Positions 1,072 through 28,170 of a stretch of DNA of 32,000 nucleotides are shown here, piece after piece. Each line of letters begins with the position of its first letter. Within the stretch, counting starts at the first letter, position 1. The stretch is from positions 10,218 to 42,217 of the forward strand of contig CAZYLT010000021.1 of assembly GCA_964648855.1 (NCBI GenBank), written 5' to 3'. Made by a program: the position numbers and the translations under genes. A model generated the notes under the pieces. It worked only from the letters and a program-made list of their open reading frames with translations, searched no databases and was not told the origin of the DNA. Source of the stretch: an uncultured archaeon (GTDB lineage: Archaea; Asgardarchaeota; Thorarchaeia; Thorarchaeales; Thorarchaeaceae).

Positions 1072-1601
1072 ATCCTTCCCAACTGATGTCAATTTCCTTC
1101 TAATGATTTCCGGCTAGCGAGTAAATAATATGCGACACCAAATATTTGTCCTTTCATCCACTGACAATTTCAAGCACTCTGCTATTTCAATTTCATTTGA
1201 TTCATGTATCGCCATGTGTATACACAAATCGTTGCTCCAAGGGGATTCAACGTCATTATGATGTAAACAAAAAGCACAGAATCATTCCGAAATAACCTAT
1301 CTATAGGTCAACCTCTGAGCTCAATTCCTTTCGAGTTGATATCAAAGGGGGATGCTGTCCATTGAATGCATTGTTCCTCTCATTTTAGCAAATCACAACC
1401 TATGTTTTACTGAACCCTCAACTCTCTTTATCACCTCATTCTTCTTCATGTAATTCACTCTCCGTTTGTAAACAACGTTCCCCCTTCTTTTCTTCATATA
1501 TTGCCCACTGTAAAGATAATCTATCTGCTAGTTTTGGGAGGACTGGCCACCCCGAAACATGATCCAGCCTTCCACCCCGGTCTGCCACCAGAGCCGCCTT
1601 T

Positions 1602-1615
1602 GCAATATCCTTAAA
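1602..1615 (+). promoter_or_regulatory. BRE/TATA-like motif GCAATATCCTTAAA, copy 1, ~30 bp upstream of the tRNA 5'-half copy
   Basis: The exact 14-mer recurs at 1881-1894. Spacing to 1645 fits an archaeal tRNA promoter. Confidence 0.5.
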
Positions 1616-1644
1616 TTTCCCCAGCGTTCTGCCGCTCGTGAACT

Positions 1645-1680
1645 GCGGCCGTAGTCTAGTTTTATGATAGAAGCCTTCCA
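1645..1680 (+). pseudogene. tRNA-Gly(TCC) 5' half, ending at position 37
   Basis: GCGGCCGTAGTCTAGTTTTATGATAGAAGCCTTCCA versus the intact gene GCGGCCGTTGTCTAGGGGCTAGGATTCCACCCTTCCG; non-tRNA sequence follows. Confidence 0.85.
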
Positions 1681-1880
1681 CTGAATTGTCCGTCATAGCG
1701 GGGTCTGGGCCCTGACTCAAGCATGACAGAACCCTTCCACTGATACGTCCCTTCTTTCACCTGAAGTTGTCGCAAAGAAGATGCCACCCTTCCACTAATA
1801 TGTCGCATTGGAATATCGATTGAGGACTGTTCAATCTATGATCCAGGCCTTCCACCGATATACCCAGAGAGTTCACTCTA

Positions 1881-1894
1881 GCAATATCCTTAAA
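1881..1894 (+). promoter_or_regulatory. BRE/TATA-like motif GCAATATCCTTAAA, copy 2
   Basis: Identical to 1602-1615. Both copies follow a repeat variant reading CCTTCCA-CC rather than CCTTCCA-CT. Confidence 0.45.
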
Positions 1895-1992
1895 ACAAGT
1901 GTTCAGACACCCTTGACTCCAGAGGGACAATCGGGATTTGGGTCGAATCGATATGATCCAACCCTTCCACTGATCGTCCTTTCTAGACTCCC

Positions 1993-2067
1993 GCGGCCGT
2001 TGTCTAGGGGCTAGGATTCCACCCTTCCGAGGTGGTAGCCCGGGTTCGATTCCCGGCGGCCGCACCA
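1993..2067 (+). tRNA. tRNA-Gly(TCC), intronless, CCA encoded
   Basis: Acceptor stem GCGGCCG/CGGCCGC; D stem GTCT/GGAT; anticodon arm CCACC-CTTCCGA-GGTGG; T arm CCGGG-TTCGATT-CCCGG; ACCA end. Confidence 0.97.
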
Positions 2068-2084
2068 CAATCCTCTTTCTTCGG

Positions 2085-2187
2085 ATGAAATTAGTAGGGG
2101 AGTGAACCCCGATTTCGGACTTCTGTGTTCTGCCCTTCTCTTGCCCAGTGTCGCCACCAACTCTAGGAGCCACCCTAGAGAAAGCAA
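2085..2187. repeat. Conserved non-coding arm downstream of the tRNA 3' end, copy 1 (candidate element end or TnpB omega-RNA scaffold on the - strand)
   Basis: Colinear blocks ATGAAAT..GAGTGA..ACTT..GTGTTC..CCCTT..AGTGTCGCCA..CTC..AAGCAA are shared with 12011-12108. Hairpin CTCTAGG-agccac-CCTAGAG at 2161-2180. Confidence 0.65.
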
Positions 2188-2202
2188 GAGCTTCGGCCAC
2201 GA

Positions 2203-3879
2203 TCATTGAGACACGGTCCCTCCTGTAGCCCGAGCTTCTTTCTCCTGCTTCAACCCAGCCGCATCGTTACCGGAAGCAGAGAGAGTTTCCACAGCTCTTC
2301 CCACGGCGCTATCATCATCGCCATCCCCGCCTTCGTCACCAAAGTCGAGGATACTCAACTGAGTGGGGCGAACCACCGCGGACTTGCTCTGGCCTGATGC
2401 CTGACCATTCTGAGCAAGTTCGGACTTCTGCTTAGCGGAACGTGTCCGTCTCACAGCCTTCGGGGCTGAACCCAACCTCCGCTCGGGAGTGGCCCACCGC
2501 CCTAGTCCGTTCTCATTCGTAAGTGACGGAATGAGCGTAATCAATCGACGCGCGATATTCAGGGAACCGTTTCGGTCGGCATTGGTGCGGAACCCGCAGG
2601 TGTGACAGATAAACAGAGATTGCTTTGGTCGAACACCTCGATGCCCGCACTTCCAGCAAGTGATGGAGGTCCAGTTCTCAGGGACCGCATGAAACCGACT
2701 CCTCTTCCCCTCAGTCGGCCACCCGCGCTGTTCGAGCCCGTGCTTGAGCGTGCGCGTCACCCGCCCAAAGCTCCAGCGATGCACCATCCCTCTGAATTTC
2801 CTTCCCTTGTAGTTCCCCTTTCGAGCAGTATTGCGGATGCCCTTGACCCGGCCAATGGCAACGTACACCGTCCATTTCTCCGAGAGCTCCTCAATATAGG
2901 AGATGAGCCTGCTGACGGTTAGCCTGTCGTACTCCTTGGAGACCTGTTCCCGCTTGGAGCGAAGGCCTCTGAGTCTCGCAGCTATGTTATCATGCCGCTC
3001 CTGGTCCGCCTTACAGACTTCAAGTTCCCGCTGCAGGTCGGCGAACCGGTCATCATACTCCTTCATGAGCCTGACTTTATGCTCCTGCACAAAGTACCGG
3101 GTCTCCGAGACTTTGGATGGCGTCACCAGCGTTGTACACACTGCACGGTTGATCCCTAGGTCTATCCCGAGCACCGCCGGAGGAAGGTCCGACTCAGCCT
3201 CGACCTCTGGCAATCGCACAGCAACAGCCGCCCACCACTTCCCGTTCTTATCCGTGAACACCTGCACAGACTTCTCATCTCCTCTGTCCAGCTGCTCAAG
3301 GTGGAAGGGTGAGGTCTTCAGCGGCACCGTCAGCCTATCATGCACGCGCCGTCCCTCAGGAACCGAGTCCAGCGAGTCCCTTAGCTCAAGCCACCAGGTT
3401 GCCACAGTGCTCTTATGGCGGACCAGCTCAGCCCGATACGGTATGAAGATCCGCCTCGGAATCCGCTGGCTCCGATTCACCTCACTGGGCCGTGATGCCT
3501 TCCGCCACCGCTTCTTCCTCAATGCCAGATAGCTCTCGTAATTCGCAACAGCCACCTTTCGGCACTCACTCAGCTCATTAGCCGATATTCTCGGAAACTG
3601 CTCCTTCAGGTCATGCTCTACCTCAGGACGTTCTTCTTGCCCCTTGGTCACCTTCAGGGCCGTCATGGTCATGGCATGTAGCCTGTTCTCGTCGATCCGG
3701 TCCTTGTTCTTCCCACGCAGCAACTCATCCTCGTTCTGCTCGATGATTCCAAAAAATGCACGAATGACTCTGGTGTCCCTCCCAACCATCTGACGCAGGC
3801 GCTTACGTGCCCTATCGGTCATCATCTCCCAGTTCAGGGGGATCTTGACCGTTATCACAGGTTCTTGGGACTTTGCCAT
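2203..3879 (-). CDS. tnpB: TnpB-like RNA-guided RuvC endonuclease with a rearranged catalytic site and a long C-terminal tail
   Basis: RuvC-I VLGIDLGINR; RuvC-II region YVAIGRVKGIR; VPENWTS; Zn ribbon CWKC...CHTC; RuvC-III NADRNGSLNIA. Probable start is MAKSQ at 3879 (the ORF track starts at 3897). Confidence 0.9.
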   Translation of the reverse strand: MAKSQEPVITVKIPLNWEMMTDRARKRLRQMVGRDTRVIRAFFGIIEQNEDELLRGKNKDRIDENRLHAMTMTALKVTKGQEERPEVEHDLKEQFPRISANELSECRKVAVANYESYLALRKKRWRKASRPSEVNRSQRIPRRIFIPYRAELVRHKSTVATWWLELRDSLDSVPEGRRVHDRLTVPLKTSPFHLEQLDRGDEKSVQVFTDKNGKWWAAVAVRLPEVEAESDLPPAVLGIDLGINRAVCTTLVTPSKVSETRYFVQEHKVRLMKEYDDRFADLQRELEVCKADQERHDNIAARLRGLRSKREQVSKEYDRLTVSRLISYIEELSEKWTVYVAIGRVKGIRNTARKGNYKGRKFRGMVHRWSFGRVTRTLKHGLEQRGWPTEGKRSRFHAVPENWTSITCWKCGHRGVRPKQSLFICHTCGFRTNADRNGSLNIARRLITLIPSLTNENGLGRWATPERRLGSAPKAVRRTRSAKQKSELAQNGQASGQSKSAVVRPTQLSILDFGDEGGDGDDDSAVGRAVETLSASGNDAAGLKQEKEARATGGTVSQ

Positions 3880-3891
3880 ATCACTCGCCAC

Positions 3892-4004
3892 ATCCATTTA
3901 AAGTTCTGACATATCCAGTCAGTGGAGTTCACTCAACTCCTTATGCGTCAGAGGCTGTTTTGAACTCCTACAAATTGTATGTATGAATCCATTTAAAGTT
4001 ATGA
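3892..4004 (-). promoter_or_regulatory. Duplicated TATA-containing motif ATCCATTTAAAGTT(C/A)TGA (3892-3909, 3987-4004) flanking two hairpins
   Basis: Exact 14-bp direct repeat 95 bp apart, reading TTTAAAT on the - strand. Hairpins CTGAC/GTCAG (3906-3922) and GGAGTT/AACTCC (3924-3940). Confidence 0.55.
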
Positions 4005-4134
4005 AGCAATTTTAGCAAATTAATATTTGAATAATATTAGAACGCCTTTAACAGTGAAATATTCAACTAGACAACCTTAAGTAGTCGTTTGATATACTAA
4101 CAAGAATCACAGTAGTTTTTGACGTTAGAGGGCA

Positions 4135-7100
4135 GTGATTGACGTGTCTGGAACGAGGGGGCCGAGGAGCCGACCCCTACCTAAACATCCAAACCGGGTG
4201 CAGGTGGAGGCGATGCTGACAGGGCTGTCCACGCACGTCTACCTGCAGGGTACCCTCAAGAACACCGTCACAGCCCACTACCATGAGAGCTCCCGGTCAA
4301 TCCTCAAGCGGGGAAAGGAGGCGTACTACATCTCCAAGGCCGTGGGGAACCCTGACTTCTCCCATGTTACAGCTACCGAGAACAACATCCGGAAGAACGG
4401 GCTGGACCTGCTGGAGGAGAACGCCGCAGCCTACGGGTGCACCGAGACCAAGCGGGCAAGAAAGTGGTACGAGGAGGTGGGCCCGCTTAACCAGCGACTG
4501 AATGCCGGGGGTGCGGCTCTGAGGGAGTGCGCGGTGCTGGACTATCCCATGGGGCAAGGAAGACAGTTGATTGCTGAAGATGGGAGCGAGACCGGCTACG
4601 GATACCACGGTGACTCTAGGGCGCCGGCCTACAACCTCATCCACAAGACACTCCCTGAACTTGACTTTGTGGACTCCGTGCGATATCACATCCAGGTTCT
4701 CAATACGGACTGCTACATCTTCGAAGTTCCGGTGAGGGACACCAGGCGATACAGCAACCTGTTCCTGCTGCGAGCTCGGAAGTATCTAGACAACATCTAC
4801 ACCGAACACAAGTACGGAGAGAAGGGGTTCCGGAAGGGAACGTTGCGAATCCTGCGTGAGTTGCGTAACGACATCCGCAGACACTACAACACCCGAAGCG
4901 AAGACAGCCCAACGGTAAGCTCCAGCATCACGTATCATCAACCGACGTTCTCCATGCAGTTCTTTCGAGATGCGGTAGCGGAGGCCAAGAGGGCGGGAGT
5001 GGATCCACTGGCTACGGGCGAACTTGAACGCATCCTGAGACCCGGCACCAACATCATTCCGGATGCAAAGGGAAAACTCCGCCCCTGTCTGCGAACGGAG
5101 GATGTTGAGCACATCTGGAAGATGGCAACCGACCGAGGGAGGAAGATAGGCTCTATAGTTCATGGTCATATCACAGACCTGTTCGACAGCTTCAGGAGTG
5201 CAGGGGACGCCATCCGCAATGATGACCGAGATAGAATCAACCGGGATACAGTCAGAATAGTAGCGGAACTACCCCTGGAAACAAAGCTGGGGAAGGGTAG
5301 GGCTGATCTTACAGTCTTTCGGCGAGAGGTCGCGCCGCAGCGGCTCAAGACCTTCTATCGCCCCCAGATGGTGGTGGAGATCAAGACCCGTTCAGCCTTC
5401 GACTTTTCTTTGGGTTATGATATCAGACCTTCCGAGTCCAGAGCCAGATACGGCAAGCCTCCTCGTGTGGTCCCAGAGTTTGAGGTCGAGCCTCGTCCGC
5501 TCACCAAGAAGGAATGGGAGGCGGTAGTGGATGAGTTTCCAAGGCAACAGACTCAGCAGCAGCTCAAGGCATATGCGGATGCTCTCTCGGAGAGCTTTGC
5601 TTCGGTCTCTGGAACTGAGGATTGCGCTCCCGTGATCAAGGCAACGCTGCTTATTGACCCCTCCACCAGCAACCCTGAGAGCCGCAAGACAATCAGAGCC
5701 CTCATACTCCATGCCCTTGACACCATCCAGACAGAAGGTAAGATTGAGGAACGAATGGTCTTCAAGGTGGACAAGCAGCCAGCTGACACAGAGATGGTTC
5801 TTGTCGTCCATAAACAGAACTACTCGCAAGATAATATAGGTGAAGTTGTTCCACCCGAGTGGCGGCCTGCATATGACCCACTCTTTGGTTCAGGGTCGCG
5901 CAAGATGAGATTCATCCTCCACCTATCGGCGGCTTCTATAGGCTCATCAGGAAAGTCAGCCGCCAGAATCTCTGGCTATCATCATGGTATGCGTCTACTT
6001 TATGAAATTGTTCACAATAAGCCTCAGACTGATCTCGTGTGGTTCGACCTAGCTGATGATTTTCAATATGGACCGCTTGCCGAGGTACGACTGCGACTGA
6101 GAACACCCGATGAGGAGCATGACTCACCTGAAGAATTGTACGGACTGTTTGAGAGAATCAGATTCGAGGGGCTATTCTCTGAGATTCAGCGATATCTGTA
6201 TGAGGATGGTTTCCTTCCAGACATTCGGCACCATCTTGGTGAACCCAGAGACTCAGATCGCATAATCATTGTGAGCGGATGGGATCGGATACGAGAGTCC
6301 ACGCCAGCTCCATATCGGAAGAGACTGAATATGCTATTGGGCCATATCCTTCGCCAAATTCCAGATATTGAGAAGACAACCATCCTGTGGTTTGACCTTC
6401 CTGTCAGATATGAACGTGTGTCATCAGCCTATAGAATGCGTTGTTTCTTACCCTTCTATGATAACTCTCTCCTGAGGGGTGAGGTTACAGAGATGATGTG
6501 GAATCTCCCTTGTCCTCCTCCGGATGTCTTGGACCCGGATGAGTGGTACTTGCCCGTCATTCCAAAGACTCCCATGTTTGACGATATAAGAACAATAATC
6601 AAGCAGAAGGCTGACGGTTTCGAGGTCTCACTTGCTCATGTTCCACCCCTAGCCAATTGGGCAGACAAGTTTCGCACGGAGGACTTCAGCAATAAGGGAC
6701 CTCCACCCGTTTCAATTGATAAGGCAGTTCCTCGATTGCAGATAAGGAACAAAATCAAGGGGTTGGCTCTCTCCCTTCTCCCATGGCTGGCAGAGCTTCA
6801 TCCTGGGCAGATCGTGTCACTTGAAAACGATACAAAGCGGGCAGGAGAATTCGTTCGGTCCTATGTATCCAGTCAGCTACCCAGCTTGGATGATATGGGG
6901 GTTGTATCAGAGCACAAGGCAAGAACCACCCCACAATCAAACGAACTAGACCAAATCAGATTTAGAACATGTGTTCCAAGAACAGGCAAATCATTCCAGC
7001 AAATGACTGCCGGAAAAATCAACACTCACCGCTTGTACCGTAGTGAGGAGGAAACCAGAACCAAACGACGTCCATCTCACCCTATTGTTACATCGCTATC

Positions 7101-26163: not shown

Positions 26164-28170
26164 ATGGAAACACTTCGACACAATGGCATCCTCGTACTAC
26201 GACCCGATGATGAACCAAAACTATCAGTCTATATCAAAGGAGAAGAAGTGCCGCTAGATAAGAACCAGGGAGAAATGGCAGTCGCATGGGTAAAGAAGCT
26301 CGGAACAAAATATGTTGAAGATCCGACATTCATTGAGAATTTCCTAGATGACTTCAGTCAGGCTCTGGGATATAATCCAATTCTTAGTCTAGATAGTATT
26401 GATTTCTCTCCTGTTATCAAGTATGTTGAGTCGGAGCGTGAACGAAAAGATAACATGACCAAGGAGGAGAAAAAAGCGGCGCGCGAGGCTAGAAAGGCCA
26501 AACGTGAGGAATTGAAGGAGAAATATGGGTATGCAGAAGTTGATGGCGAGAAGATGGAGCTCAGTACATATCAGACTGAGCCGTCGAGCATATTCATGGG
26601 CCGGGGTGAACATCCACTTAGAGGACGTTGGAAGGAGGGCGCAACTGAGGCTGACATAACACTGAATCTTGACCCCGATGCACCTAGGCCAGAGGGGGAT
26701 TGGGGTGAGATTGTATGGAAGCCTGATTGTCTCTGGATTGCCAAATGGACAGACGAACTAACTGGCAAAAACAAGTACATCTGGCTTCATGACAGTACTC
26801 CTATCAAGCAAGAGCGCGAGGAGGCAAAGTTCGATGAAGCACTTGCGCTTGAAAAGAGAATTGATGAAATACGGGAACACATCGCAAAGGGACTCCACTC
26901 TGAAGATCCCAAGCGTAGAGAAGTAGCTGCGGCTTGCTATCTCATTGATAACCTGAGCCTGAGAGTTGGCGACGAGAAAGATGCAGATGAGGCAGATACC
27001 GTTGGTGCTACTACTCTGCGTGCCGAACATGTGACCTTCAAAAAAGACTCGATTGTGTTTGATTTCTTGGGGAAGGACAGTGTTCCTTGGCATAAGGAAC
27101 TAGTCTTGGAACCTGATGTCTATGATGTGTTCAGAGAGCTCTATGATAATGCCGTTGACAGGATTGAGTCATACAAGGCTCGTAAGGGGAAGACGAGCAA
27201 GGCGGACCCAAAGAAATTGGCACAGATATTTCCCAACATCGGAAGCAGCCATGTGAATCGTTTCCTTAGTGAAGTCATGGACAACCTTAGCGCGAAGATG
27301 TTTAGGACATACCATGCTACAGTCACATTCAGAGATGAAATAAAGGATGCAAAGGTCAAGAAGAAGGATCCAGATTTCATCAAAAAAGAAGCAGTAGAAC
27401 GAGCAAATCTTGAAGTCGCCCGAATAATGAACCACACAAAACAGGAAACGAAAGGTTGGCCAAAGAGGGAAACGCGCTTCAAGGAACGGGTTAAGAAGGC
27501 AGAAAAGAGAATTCAGAAGGCCCTGAAGGCAGTAAAGGACAAAGAAGAGCGACTGAAGAAACGTAGAAAAACTGAGAGAGCGCGGATAAAGAAAAAGAAC
27601 AAGCTGATTGAAAAGCAGAAAGGCGTGGTTGACCGGCGCTGGGAGAAAGTAAAGGAGTACCGCACAAAACGGGATAGCGCGAAGGAAACGTGGGATCGCG
27701 CTCGTGAAGAGAAACGAAAGATACGTGAGAGCAGACGCAAATCAAAACGTACTAAGAAAGAACGGTTAGAAGAAGCACAAGAGAAAATCGACCGGACAAG
27801 AGAATGGTGGGAAAAAGCAAAACAACGCGTTGCTGATGCCTACGAACGATATGAGAAAAGCAAGGCTATTCTTGAGAAACGGAAGAAATCGCTTGAAGAA
27901 ATGAAGAAGACTGCAGAGGAACGAATAGAGCGAAGAAAAGAGATTGTCCAGAATGCGAAGGAACGAGTGAAGAAGGCAGAATTGGCTAAACAGAAGATAG
28001 AAGTTGATTGGGCGTTGGCCAAGTCCAGTCGTGTCTGGAATCTGAATACGTCTTTGAAGTCGTATATTCACCCGAAAATAGTCTACAAGTGGTGTAAGAA
28101 GGTTGATTATGACTGGAGAAAGGTCTATTCCAAAGCTCTGGAGAGAAAATTCGACTGGGTAGAAGACTGA
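26164..28170 (+). CDS. DNA topoisomerase IB (eukaryote-like) with an extended coiled-coil linker
   Basis: FMGRGEHPLRGRWK; catalytic pentad LRVGDEK, FLGKD, KMFRTY, MNH, TSLKSYIHP. Confidence 0.95.
   Translation: METLRHNGILVLRPDDEPKLSVYIKGEEVPLDKNQGEMAVAWVKKLGTKYVEDPTFIENFLDDFSQALGYNPILSLDSIDFSPVIKYVESERERKDNMTKEEKKAAREARKAKREELKEKYGYAEVDGEKMELSTYQTEPSSIFMGRGEHPLRGRWKEGATEADITLNLDPDAPRPEGDWGEIVWKPDCLWIAKWTDELTGKNKYIWLHDSTPIKQEREEAKFDEALALEKRIDEIREHIAKGLHSEDPKRREVAAACYLIDNLSLRVGDEKDADEADTVGATTLRAEHVTFKKDSIVFDFLGKDSVPWHKELVLEPDVYDVFRELYDNAVDRIESYKARKGKTSKADPKKLAQIFPNIGSSHVNRFLSEVMDNLSAKMFRTYHATVTFRDEIKDAKVKKKDPDFIKKEAVERANLEVARIMNHTKQETKGWPKRETRFKERVKKAEKRIQKALKAVKDKEERLKKRRKTERARIKKKNKLIEKQKGVVDRRWEKVKEYRTKRDSAKETWDRAREEKRKIRESRRKSKRTKKERLEEAQEKIDRTREWWEKAKQRVADAYERYEKSKAILEKRKKSLEEMKKTAEERIERRKEIVQNAKERVKKAELAKQKIEVDWALAKSSRVWNLNTSLKSYIHPKIVYKWCKKVDYDWRKVYSKALERKFDWVED

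What the first reader, a model, noticed from the sequence alone, without database searches (positions are those of the whole stretch)
2560..3170. TnpB has the Fanzor-like rearranged RuvC site (Gly at the canonical Glu, alternative Glu downstream)
Using ORF-track numbering, D246 (GIDLG) and D441 (NADRN) are intact. The canonical RuvC-II Glu is Gly349 (VAIGRV), and Glu407 appears in VPENWTS where typical TnpB has V(D/N)PxxTS. This arrangement is established for Fanzors and their closest TnpB relatives, so the protein is probably active rather than dead. Its presence in a likely Asgard archaeon bears on Fanzor origins, although convergence is possible.
Basis: partly seen in the sequence, partly recalled or inferred. 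Interest (0 to 1): 0.75.

Follow-up and report, generated by a model that had tools for sequence, protein, structure and literature searches.

The report
Asgard TnpB with shifted catalytic glutamate
This Thorarchaeota TnpB (an RNA-guided DNA cutter) does carry the known "moved glutamate" version of its active site and is most likely active, but this variant and this Asgard gene family are already catalogued, and nothing tested here ties it specifically to eukaryotic Fanzors.

Summary
The ORF at 2203-3897 (-) has D246, G349, E407, D441 and a CCCC zinc finger at the stated codons. A family profile places G349 on the catalytic Glu of AsCas12f (IQMEDL) and E407 on the Pro of its IDPQYTS motif.

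Among 74 relatives, 67 are Gly+Glu and 7 are Glu+Pro/Ala, with no mixed state and one change on the tree. All 120 closest cluster representatives keep D/G/E/D. E407 sits 34 residues before the RuvC-III Asp, the same spacing as Glu467 to Asp501 in mimivirus Fanzor2.

Four co-linear orthologues give dN/dS of 0.09-0.16. A roughly 390-nt RNA with strong covariation overlaps the gene's 3' end. The enzyme is therefore very probably active, not TldR-like.

The host is a Thorarchaeota MAG. The gene is half of a two-gene module with a giant protein whose N-terminus folds as Cas1. Its 3' end (variable stretch, then GTTCACTC) matches the aCas1-TnpB loci of Altae-Tran et al. 2023.

The Fanzor-origin reading is not supported. 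The closest solved relatives are Cas12f; Fanzor2 is no closer than ISDra2 TnpB. The rearrangement is reported in several TnpB clades. A phylogeny with Fanzors could not be run. The same stretch was also noted in an overlapping window of this scan.

The parts
2203..3897 (-). tnpB coding sequence (564 aa as an open frame). The likely true start is ATG 3877-3879 (residue 7 of the frame).
   Evidence: Pfam PF07282 at 2.3e-11, above its cut-off. NCBIfam guided_TnpB at 7.8e-25 but 88 bits, below the 100-bit cut-off. AF2 model pLDDT 84. Fold match to Cas12f/TnpB at Z 15-18. Homologues begin at residue 7.
3160..3162 (-). RuvC-I Asp246 (GIDLG), at the end of beta-1 (strand 240-247).
   Evidence: Present in 120/120 close clusters.
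2851..2853 (-). Gly349, at the position of the canonical RuvC-II Glu, at the end of beta-4 (strand 343-350).
   Evidence: Aligned to the Glu of AsCas12f 'IQMEDL'.
2677..2679 (-). Glu407, the alternative catalytic Glu. It is the first residue after beta-5 (strand 402-406), 7 residues before the zinc finger and 34 before Asp441.
   Evidence: Invariant in alignment A1 and in 120/120 clusters. Covaries with Gly349. Same 34-residue spacing as Glu467 to Asp501 of ApmFanzor2 (PMC11832414). The VIA alignment ends at 458/518, an offset of 60 that also maps 407 to 467 and 441 to 501.
2596..2658 (-). CxxC...CxxC zinc finger (C414, C417, C431, C434).
2575..2577 (-). RuvC-III Asp441 in NADRN (the NADxN type of 'derived' TnpBs).
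   Evidence: PMC10691335 for the NADXN class.
2123..2509 (-). OmegaRNA-like structured RNA scaffold. It overlaps the last ~100 codons of tnpB (the tail that AF2 predicts as disordered) and about 80 nt beyond the stop codon.
   Evidence: The 9-copy alignment A6 gives 103 pairs, 53 with changes on both sides, 92% of cells paired against 37-47% when partners are slid, and 0/500 shuffles as high. Synonymous divergence drops from ~0.6 to 0.2-0.3 in the last ~120 codons. tnpB-less copies elsewhere in the genome keep 84-86% of the pairs.
2100..2122 (-). The scaffold's last conserved bases (...GAAGT, ending at 2119), then an unconstrained 11-nt stretch (2108-2118), then the conserved GTTCACTC motif (2100-2107).
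   Evidence: This matches the 'hypervariable region flanked by a conserved T and GTTCACTCA' reported for aCas1-TnpB loci (PMC10691335).
1993..2067 (+). Intact tRNA-Gly(TCC), convergent with tnpB, 32 nt beyond the GTTCACTC motif.
   Evidence: The same arrangement is seen in the orthologous loci L014 and L015; in L013 a second tnpB lies in between.
3898..4134 (.). Divergent intergenic region shared with the giant gene. It is conserved among paralogous modules and holds an inverted copy of the motif (GTTCACTC on + at 3927-3934) and two TTTAAA boxes.
4135..8751 (+). Giant partner gene (1538 aa), Cas1-like at its N-terminus (about residues 6-235), with a PD-(D/E)xK-like D..E.K motif near residues 391-417.
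   Evidence: Paralogues of 1690-1829 aa lie divergently next to each of the three other full tnpB copies. The family is found almost only in Thorarchaeota and has no Pfam hit. The AF2 model of residues 1-360 has pLDDT 86. The top 36 PDB entries are all Cas1 or casposase at Z 9.1-13.2, then the list drops to 6.5.
8761..8804 (+). Displaced, diverged 3' half of a tRNA-Gly(TCC), from the anticodon loop onward, 9 nt after the giant gene's stop codon. It marks the far edge of the integrated module.
Evidence: Read directly from the sequence.

Best explanation
The gene encodes a catalytically competent TnpB-type RNA-guided DNA endonuclease whose RuvC site is the known 'RuvC-II rearranged' form. The Glu normally at the end of beta-4 is Gly349. 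Its role is taken by Glu407 at the end of the neighbouring strand beta-5, which with Asp246 and Asp441 forms the metal-binding triad. The enzyme is expected to bind a ~390-nt omegaRNA transcribed from the 3' end of its own gene (window 2509-2123, minus strand) and to cut DNA matching the guide that follows the scaffold. It is one half of a Thorarchaeota two-gene mobile module (giant Cas1-like protein plus TnpB) that here lies between an intact tRNA-Gly and a displaced tRNA-Gly 3' half. Shown: residue positions, covariation, conservation, purifying selection, fold, RNA covariation, the module and its Cas1-like partner. Inferred: the three-dimensional closeness of E407 to the two Asp, nuclease activity, which bases form the guide, and the biological role (most likely retention or homing of the module at tRNA-Gly).
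For: Residues and codons are as stated. G349 aligns to the catalytic Glu of AsCas12f and E407 to its motif Pro. Covariation is complete: 63 DGED against 7 DE(P/A)D with no mixed state, and the tree needs one change (SH-aLRT 95). D/G/E/D and CCCC are 100% conserved in 120 clusters down to 53% identity. dN/dS is 0.09-0.16 among four co-linear orthologues. The AF2 model (pLDDT 84) places G349 in strand 343-350 and E407 just after strand 402-406, the adjacent parallel strands of an RNase H fold. The full-length fold matches Cas12f/TnpB/Fanzor2 at Z 15-18. The E407-D441 spacing of 34 equals Glu467-Asp501 in ApmFanzor2, where E467A abolishes cleavage (PMC10530073, PMC11832414). TvTnpB, which has the same rearrangement, cleaves DNA in vitro (PMC10530073). 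The omegaRNA-like scaffold shows strong covariation. The module is repeated four times in the genome.
Against: No coordinates were available, so the E407-D246-D441 distances were not measured. No expression or cleavage data exist for this family. The NCBIfam TnpB model scores below its cut-off (88 against 100 bits). The 11-nt stretch after the scaffold is short for a TnpB guide and evolves at about the neutral rate among orthologues, so what is targeted is unknown. The RNA structure was predicted from the same alignment on which its pairs were counted.
Confidence: 0.8

Rival explanations
1. The protein is a nuclease-dead, TldR-like RNA-guided DNA binder. Loss of the canonical Glu inactivated it, and E407 is conserved for another reason.
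For: The canonical RuvC-II Glu is absent. The orthologues are co-linear rather than recently transposed. Altae-Tran et al. report many exapted, inactivated TnpBs.
Against: Both Asp, E407 and the zinc finger are invariant in 120 clusters. Gly349 and Glu407 switch together with Glu349 and Pro/Ala407. The same arrangement is experimentally active in ApmFanzor2 and TvTnpB. The protein has no C-terminal truncation or loss of RuvC-III such as that paper describes for some inactivated TnpBs.
Confidence: 0.07
2. The family is a direct Asgard relative or ancestor of eukaryotic Fanzors. On this reading the rearranged site was inherited by eukaryotes from the archaeal partner at eukaryogenesis.
For: It has the same Gly/Glu arrangement and the same 34-residue Glu-Asp spacing as Fanzor2. 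The host is an Asgard archaeon. The window's protein lies in a deep, apparently single-origin Gly/Glu clade. Jiang et al. speculate that some TnpBs were inherited from the archaeal partner.
Against: The family profile finds Cas12f at 4e-35 and some 45 Cas12/TnpB chains, but Fanzor1 only at E 0.098, and neither ApmFanzor2 nor SpuFanzor1 at E <= 1. The structural Z to Fanzor2 (15.3) is no higher than to ISDra2 TnpB (15.4) and lower than to Cas12f (17.8). The family is largely confined to two GTDB families of the phylum and was not found in 26 others sampled. Its partner is a Cas1-like protein, not a transposase type reported with Fanzors. The rearrangement is reported in multiple TnpB clades.
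Confidence: 0.08
3. The Gly/Glu arrangement of this family arose independently of the Fanzor/TnpB2 lineage, by convergence on a RuvX-like placement of the Glu.
For: Altae-Tran et al. count altered RuvC-II motifs in two major clades and eight large branches, some nearly archaea-only. Jiang et al. find the substitution 'across multiple clades'. The nearest solved relatives have the canonical site.
Against: Within the ~74 sampled relatives a single switch suffices, and the Gly/Glu clade is deep, reaching down to ~23% identity. It could therefore be the same large clade as RIIr-5/TnpB2.
Confidence: 0.45

Closest known systems
aCas1-associated TnpBs of Asgard archaea (groups Cas1H-Asgard-1/-2; Altae-Tran et al. 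2023, PMC10691335)
   Same: The host is an Asgard archaeon. tnpB lies next to a Cas1-like gene. Downstream of tnpB a variable stretch follows a conserved T and is followed by GTTCACTC(A).
   Different: I could not see the paper's tree or supplement, so assignment to group 1 or 2, and whether the paper marks these groups as RuvC-II rearranged, are unverified. Here the partner is a 1538-aa protein in which only the first ~235 residues are Cas1-like.
RuvC-II-rearranged TnpBs: 'TnpB2' (e.g. Thermoplasma volcanium TvTnpB, alternative Glu323; Jiang et al. 2023) and the RIIr clades, e.g. RIIr-5 with Glu replaced by Gly (Altae-Tran et al. 2023)
   Same: Gly sits at the canonical Glu. A conserved alternative Glu lies ~50 residues downstream, just before the zinc finger. 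The two Asp are intact.
   Different: TvTnpB sits in an IS605 element with a TnpA. This one has no TnpA and pairs with a Cas1-like protein. It is larger (558-564 aa) and has a ~90-residue disordered tail that overlaps its RNA. Clade membership was not tested.
Fanzor2 of Acanthamoeba polyphaga mimivirus (PDB 9b0l; triad Asp324/Glu467/Asp501)
   Same: The Glu is shifted in the same way and the Glu-Asp spacing is identical (34). The whole-protein fold match has Z 15.3 over 378 residues.
   Different: That protein comes from a eukaryotic virus, in an IS607-like context, and has an N-terminal extension with an NLS. Sequence similarity is too low to appear in a profile search at E <= 1.
Cas12f (AsCas12f 8j12/7wju, OsCas12f 9nzs) and ISDra2 TnpB (8h1j/8exa)
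   Same: These are the best sequence-profile and fold matches (E 4e-35; Z 16.5-17.8 and 15.4). They share the domain order, zinc finger and NADxN-type RuvC-III.
   Different: They have the canonical Glu in beta-4 and Pro where this protein has Glu407. Cas12f works with CRISPR arrays.

Membership tests
TnpB / Cas12 superfamily (RuvC RNA-guided nucleases) | Split RuvC domain with RuvC-I Asp and RuvC-III Asp, and a zinc finger between RuvC-II and RuvC-III | tested here: met
   D246, D441 and C414/C417/C431/C434 are present. PF07282 scores above its cut-off.
TnpB / Cas12 superfamily (RuvC RNA-guided nucleases) | Canonical RuvC-II Glu at the end of beta-4 | tested here: not met
   Gly349 aligns to the Glu of AsCas12f IQMEDL. 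It is replaced functionally by Glu407, which defines the rearranged subclass.
TnpB / Cas12 superfamily (RuvC RNA-guided nucleases) | Overall WED-REC-RuvC fold | tested here: met
   The AF2 model has pLDDT 84. VIA Z is 17.8 (OsCas12f, 372 aligned residues, rmsd 5.5) and 15.4 (ISDra2 TnpB).
TnpB / Cas12 superfamily (RuvC RNA-guided nucleases) | Curated NCBIfam model guided_TnpB (NF040570) scoring above its cut-off | tested here: not met
   The score is 88 bits against a cut-off of 100, with E 7.8e-25. This makes it a divergent member.
TnpB / Cas12 superfamily (RuvC RNA-guided nucleases) | Guide RNA (omegaRNA) encoded at and overlapping the 3' end of the gene | tested here: met
   There is a covarying ~390-nt structure: 53 of 103 pairs are compensatory, 92% of cells are paired against ~42% when slid. 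Synonymous divergence is depressed in the last ~120 codons. Transcription was not tested.
RuvC-II-rearranged TnpB (TnpB2 / RIIr) | An inert residue (Gly/Pro) at the canonical Glu, plus a conserved alternative Glu ~45-50 residues downstream | tested here: met
   G349 and E407 are 58 residues apart. They are invariant in 120 clusters and covary with the canonical state.
RuvC-II-rearranged TnpB (TnpB2 / RIIr) | The alternative Glu lies in the active site next to the two Asp | tested here: inconclusive
   The secondary structure puts E407 right after beta-5, next to beta-4. The alignment offset to ApmFanzor2 is consistent with E407 = Glu467. No coordinates were available to measure distances.
RuvC-II-rearranged TnpB (TnpB2 / RIIr) | Branches inside the published TnpB2 or RIIr-5 clade | not testable with these tools
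   No reference TnpB2, RIIr or Fanzor sequences could be brought into a tree.
Fanzor | Encoded in a eukaryote or a eukaryotic virus | tested here: not met
   The host is a Thorarchaeota MAG.
Fanzor | Rearranged RuvC-II site | tested here: met
Fanzor | Closer to Fanzors than to other TnpB/Cas12 proteins | tested here: inconclusive
   Among solved structures, Fanzor2 scores Z 15.3 against Cas12f 17.8, and Fanzor1 has profile E 0.098 against Cas12f 4e-35. No phylogeny was possible.
aCas1-associated Asgard TnpB (Cas1H-Asgard) | Adjacent Asgard-type Cas1 homologue | tested here: met
   The neighbour's N-terminal 235 residues fold as the Cas1 catalytic domain (Z 13.2 to 3god, 186 aligned; the top 36 entries are all Cas1 or casposase). 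It is paired with tnpB in 4 of 4 full copies. The sequence-level tests were negative (Pfam, hhalign probability <1%).
aCas1-associated Asgard TnpB (Cas1H-Asgard) | A variable stretch after a conserved T, followed by GTTCACTCA, downstream of tnpB | tested here: met
   The pattern ...GAAGT + 11-17 nt + GTTCACTC(A) is present in 9 or more copies.
IS200/IS605 or IS607 transposon | Y1 TnpA or serine recombinase next to tnpB | tested here: not met
   Pfam scans of the neighbours returned no transposase family. The partner is the Cas1-like giant gene.
TldR (nuclease-dead TnpB-like repressors) | Loss of catalytic residues | tested here: not met
   D246, E407 and D441 are all invariant and the protein is full length.

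The most novel reading that the evidence does not exclude
The Thorarchaeota Gly/Glu TnpB family belongs to the same lineage as the prokaryotic ancestors of Fanzors. On this reading the shifted-Glu nuclease entered eukaryotes from the Asgard partner rather than from bacteria or viruses.
Probability: 0.07. Interest if true: 0.85.

Novelty: new member of a known kind. Interest (0 to 1): 0.35.

Why it matters
The finding gives a secure functional call: this is an active-type, not dead, RNA-guided nuclease from an abundant Asgard-specific TnpB family. The family was found in 47 of 76 sampled genomes of the host's GTDB family, often in several diverged copies. That makes the aCas1-TnpB module a reasonable candidate for biochemical study, with clear mutants to make (E407A, and a G349E/E407P swap). 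It also shows that the Gly/Glu state behaves as a strict two-residue switch across a deep clade. It does not by itself inform Fanzor origins. Enzymes with this rearrangement were reported to lack collateral ssDNA cleavage (PMC10530073), which is a testable prediction for this family.

Tried and rejected
1. Measuring E407-D246-D441 distances was not possible, because the structure tool returns no coordinates.

2. A phylogeny with Fanzor and TnpB2 was not possible. No tool returns those sequences as usable ids. The search for related loci with alignment A1 failed for lack of a conserved stretch. Cluster look-ups of ten distant relatives gave no organism names.

3. Sequence-level tests of the giant neighbour as Cas1 were negative or not significant: Pfam at E <= 10, NCBIfam, PDB sequence and profile searches, the protein atlas, and hhalign against the genome's own Cas1 (probability < 1%). 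The best-scoring hhalign stretch does cover the invariant N119, H170 and D180, opposite conserved Cas1 columns. Only the fold search settled it.

4. I first read the loci as chromosomally syntenic and therefore immobile. I rejected this because homology to the orthologous loci stops 100-470 nt past the tnpB stop codon. Only the module plus its tRNA is shared.

5. I considered the 22-nt variable segment between GTTCACTC and GTTTTGAAC in the tnpB-giant gene intergenic region as a guide. I dropped it because it diverges gradually among orthologues like neutral DNA.

6. I took the left end of the element to be near 4012. That was wrong, because the giant gene belongs to the module.

7. Tandem Repeats Finder saw no array in 1000-2300, although GTGGAAGG-N5-ATCAT units about 58 nt apart are visible by eye.

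8. The two canonical Cas1 genes of the genome lie on other contigs and are not linked to any tnpB copy.
Full report
**The sequence**

The finding lies inside one ORF, window 2203-3897 on the minus strand, 564 aa. D246, G349, E407 and D441 are encoded at 3160-3162, 2851-2853, 2677-2679 and 2575-2577.

The protein matches Pfam Cas12f1-like_TNB above its cut-off. It matches NCBIfam guided_TnpB at E 7.8e-25, but at 88 bits it falls below that model's 100-bit cut-off. It is therefore a divergent TnpB.

**Is Gly349 at the canonical Glu, and Glu407 the substitute?**

Pairwise alignments to solved proteins were unreliable in this region, so I used a profile of 53 family members (A1). Against AsCas12f, the family's "vaiGklkgIR" aligns to "iqmEDLtnIR" and "vkEswTSktC" aligns to "IDPQYTSQRC". 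This places G349 on the RuvC-II Glu and E407 on the Pro of the usual (D/N)PxxTS motif.

Evidence from relatives:
- A full-library search found 1010 relatives at E <= 0.001.
- Among the 78 long ones, 63 are D-G-E-D and 7 are D-E-(P/A)-D. No complete sequence has both Glu or neither.
- On a maximum-likelihood tree of 74 of them, the two states need a single change. The seven canonical proteins form one side of a branch, with SH-aLRT 95.
- In the 120 closest 90%-identity clusters (53-91% identical), D246, G349, E407, D441 and the four zinc-finger Cys are all 100% conserved.

**Structure**

An AF2 model built from A1 has pLDDT 84 and is confident for residues 8-475.
- G349 lies in strand 343-350 (beta-4).
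- E407 is the first residue after strand 402-406 (beta-5).
- D246 ends strand 240-247 (beta-1).
- D441 starts helix 440-455.

In an RNase H fold, beta-1, beta-4 and beta-5 are neighbouring parallel strands whose C-terminal ends form the active site. A Glu at the end of beta-5 can therefore replace one at the end of beta-4. This is the RuvX-like geometry described for RIIr TnpBs (PMC10691335).

I could not obtain coordinates, so this step rests on topology. Two further observations support it. E407 to D441 is 34 residues, the same as Glu467 to Asp501 in the cryo-EM triad of mimivirus Fanzor2 (PMC11832414). The structural alignment to that chain ends at model 458 and chain 518, an offset of 60 that also maps 407 to 467 and 441 to 501.

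**Is the protein under selection, and does it have its RNA?**

Orthologues at 91, 88 and 73% identity occur in three other MAGs, one of them labelled Candidatus Thorarchaeota. Pairwise dN/dS is 0.09-0.16.

Synonymous divergence falls from about 0.6 to 0.2-0.3 in the last ~120 codons while non-synonymous divergence rises. This region is the tail that AF2 calls disordered, residues 477-564. Both observations suggest a constraint at the nucleotide level.

Nine copies of this region were aligned: four orthologues, three paralogues and two tnpB-less fragments (A6). They fold into a common structure of 103 pairs, 53 of which show changes on both sides. 92% of cells are paired, against 37-47% when partners are slid. 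None of 500 shuffles reaches the observed values. The two fragments whose reading frame is broken still keep 84-86% of the pairs.

I read this as the omegaRNA scaffold, window 2509-2123 on the minus strand. It ends in ...GAACACAGAAGT, followed by 11 unconstrained bases and then GTTCACTC at 2107-2100.

**Context**

That 3' anatomy is what Altae-Tran et al. describe for aCas1-associated TnpBs of Asgard archaea: a hypervariable stretch after a conserved T, followed by GTTCACTCA. I tested the partner gene.
- The divergent 1538-aa ORF (4135-8751) has intact paralogues of 1690-1829 aa placed divergently beside each of the three other full-length tnpB copies in this genome.
- Its family is almost entirely Thorarchaeota and carries no Pfam domain.
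- Sequence and profile comparisons to Cas1 were not significant.
- An AF2 model of residues 1-360 (pLDDT 86) matches Cas1. The Foldseek top 12 are all Cas1. The VIA top 36 entries are all Cas1 or casposase at Z 9.1-13.2, aligned to the Cas1 catalytic helical domain, and the next entry scores 6.5.

So this tnpB is the nuclease half of an aCas1-TnpB module. In the window the module lies between an intact tRNA-Gly(TCC) at 1993-2067 and a diverged tRNA-Gly 3' half at 8761-8804. It is G+C-rich, 0.54-0.56 against ~0.42 for the rest of the window.

Homology to the orthologous loci ends shortly beyond the tRNA. What is shared is the module with its tRNA, not the chromosomal neighbourhood.

In the host's phylum the family was found in 47 of 76 sampled genomes of the host's GTDB family and in 16 of 28 of a second family. 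It was scarce in two further families (2 of 19 and 1 of 5) and was not found in the 26 others sampled. Genomes that carry it usually have several diverged copies.

**Relation to Fanzors**

The arrangement is the one established for Fanzors and TnpB2, and enzymes with it are active. E467A kills ApmFanzor2, and TvTnpB cleaves DNA in a TAM-dependent way.

Nothing here links the family to Fanzors in particular:
- The family profile finds Cas12f at 4e-35 and dozens of Cas12/TnpB chains. It finds Guillardia Fanzor1 only at E 0.098 and neither ApmFanzor2 nor SpuFanzor1 at E <= 1.
- Fold scores are 16.5-17.8 for Cas12f, 15.4 for ISDra2 TnpB and 15.3 for Fanzor2.
- Both census papers report the substitution in several TnpB clades, some nearly archaea-only.

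The window's protein does sit in a deep Gly/Glu clade with one apparent origin. That clade may or may not be the published TnpB2/RIIr-5 clade. I could not bring reference sequences into a tree, so that question stays open.

**Verdict**

The Asgard assignment is correct. The evolutionary significance is unproven and, on the indirect evidence, unlikely to be special. The catalytic variant is known and the family has been catalogued, so this is a new member of a known kind. The unusual features of the locus (Cas1-like partner, tRNA-Gly target, tnpB-less RNA copies) lie outside this finding and are noted separately.

Noticed in passing
window 1540-1990 (read on the minus strand): Six units of GTGGAAGG-N5-(G)ATCAT lie about 55-116 nt apart. 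Each copies the anticodon-loop and 5' anticodon-stem part of the neighbouring tRNA-Gly in antisense, with a different 5-nt stem, and each is preceded by ..AGT like the end of the omegaRNA scaffold. One unit (near 1650-1682) extends to a whole diverged tRNA 5' half. They could be leftovers of successive integrations at tRNA-Gly, or extra guides as earlier notes propose. TRF did not call them.
   Followed up: partly
G000 contigs C1:273105, C2:182, C6:106390, C11:27007, C52:4611 (loci L007, L010): These are tnpB-less copies of only the last ~430 nt of the unit: the omegaRNA-like scaffold, a variable stretch and GTTCACTC. They start where the disordered tail of TnpB begins. In the two examined (L007, L010) the reading frames are broken but 84-86% of the RNA pairs are kept. 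They are possibly stand-alone guide RNA genes used in trans, or decayed copies.
   Followed up: partly
L013:4898-7009: In one orthologous MAG a second, different TnpB (open frame 703 aa) sits between the first tnpB's GTTCACTC motif and the tRNA-Gly, without a giant gene of its own. This suggests that the spot is an insertion target.
   Followed up: no
window 3898-4134: The intergenic region between tnpB and the giant gene is conserved among paralogous modules. It contains GGAGTTCA-CTC-N22-GTTT-TGAACTCC, whose ends can pair, and two copies of ATCCATTTAAAGTT. These look like TATA boxes for divergent, possibly leaderless, transcription.
   Followed up: partly
window 8872-11924: This is an SbcD/Mre11-like phosphoesterase (Metallophos) followed by an SbcC/Rad50-like SMC-type ATPase, directly after the displaced tRNA half.
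   Followed up: no
window 26164-28170: A full-length eukaryotic-type DNA topoisomerase IB (Pfam Topoisom_I_N, Topoisom_I and Topo_C_assoc; E 1.7e-58 for the catalytic core) is encoded in this Asgard genome.
   Followed up: no
window 2000-6000: tnpB and the 5' half of the giant gene have G+C of 0.54-0.56, against ~0.42 for the rest of the window.
   Followed up: no
window 4135-8751, residues ~388-418 of the product: Behind the Cas1-like domain the giant protein family has an invariant G..D...(23)...E.K pattern (GRxDL...VLEIKT), which looks like a PD-(D/E)xK nuclease motif. The remaining ~1100 residues have no recognisable domain.
   Followed up: no
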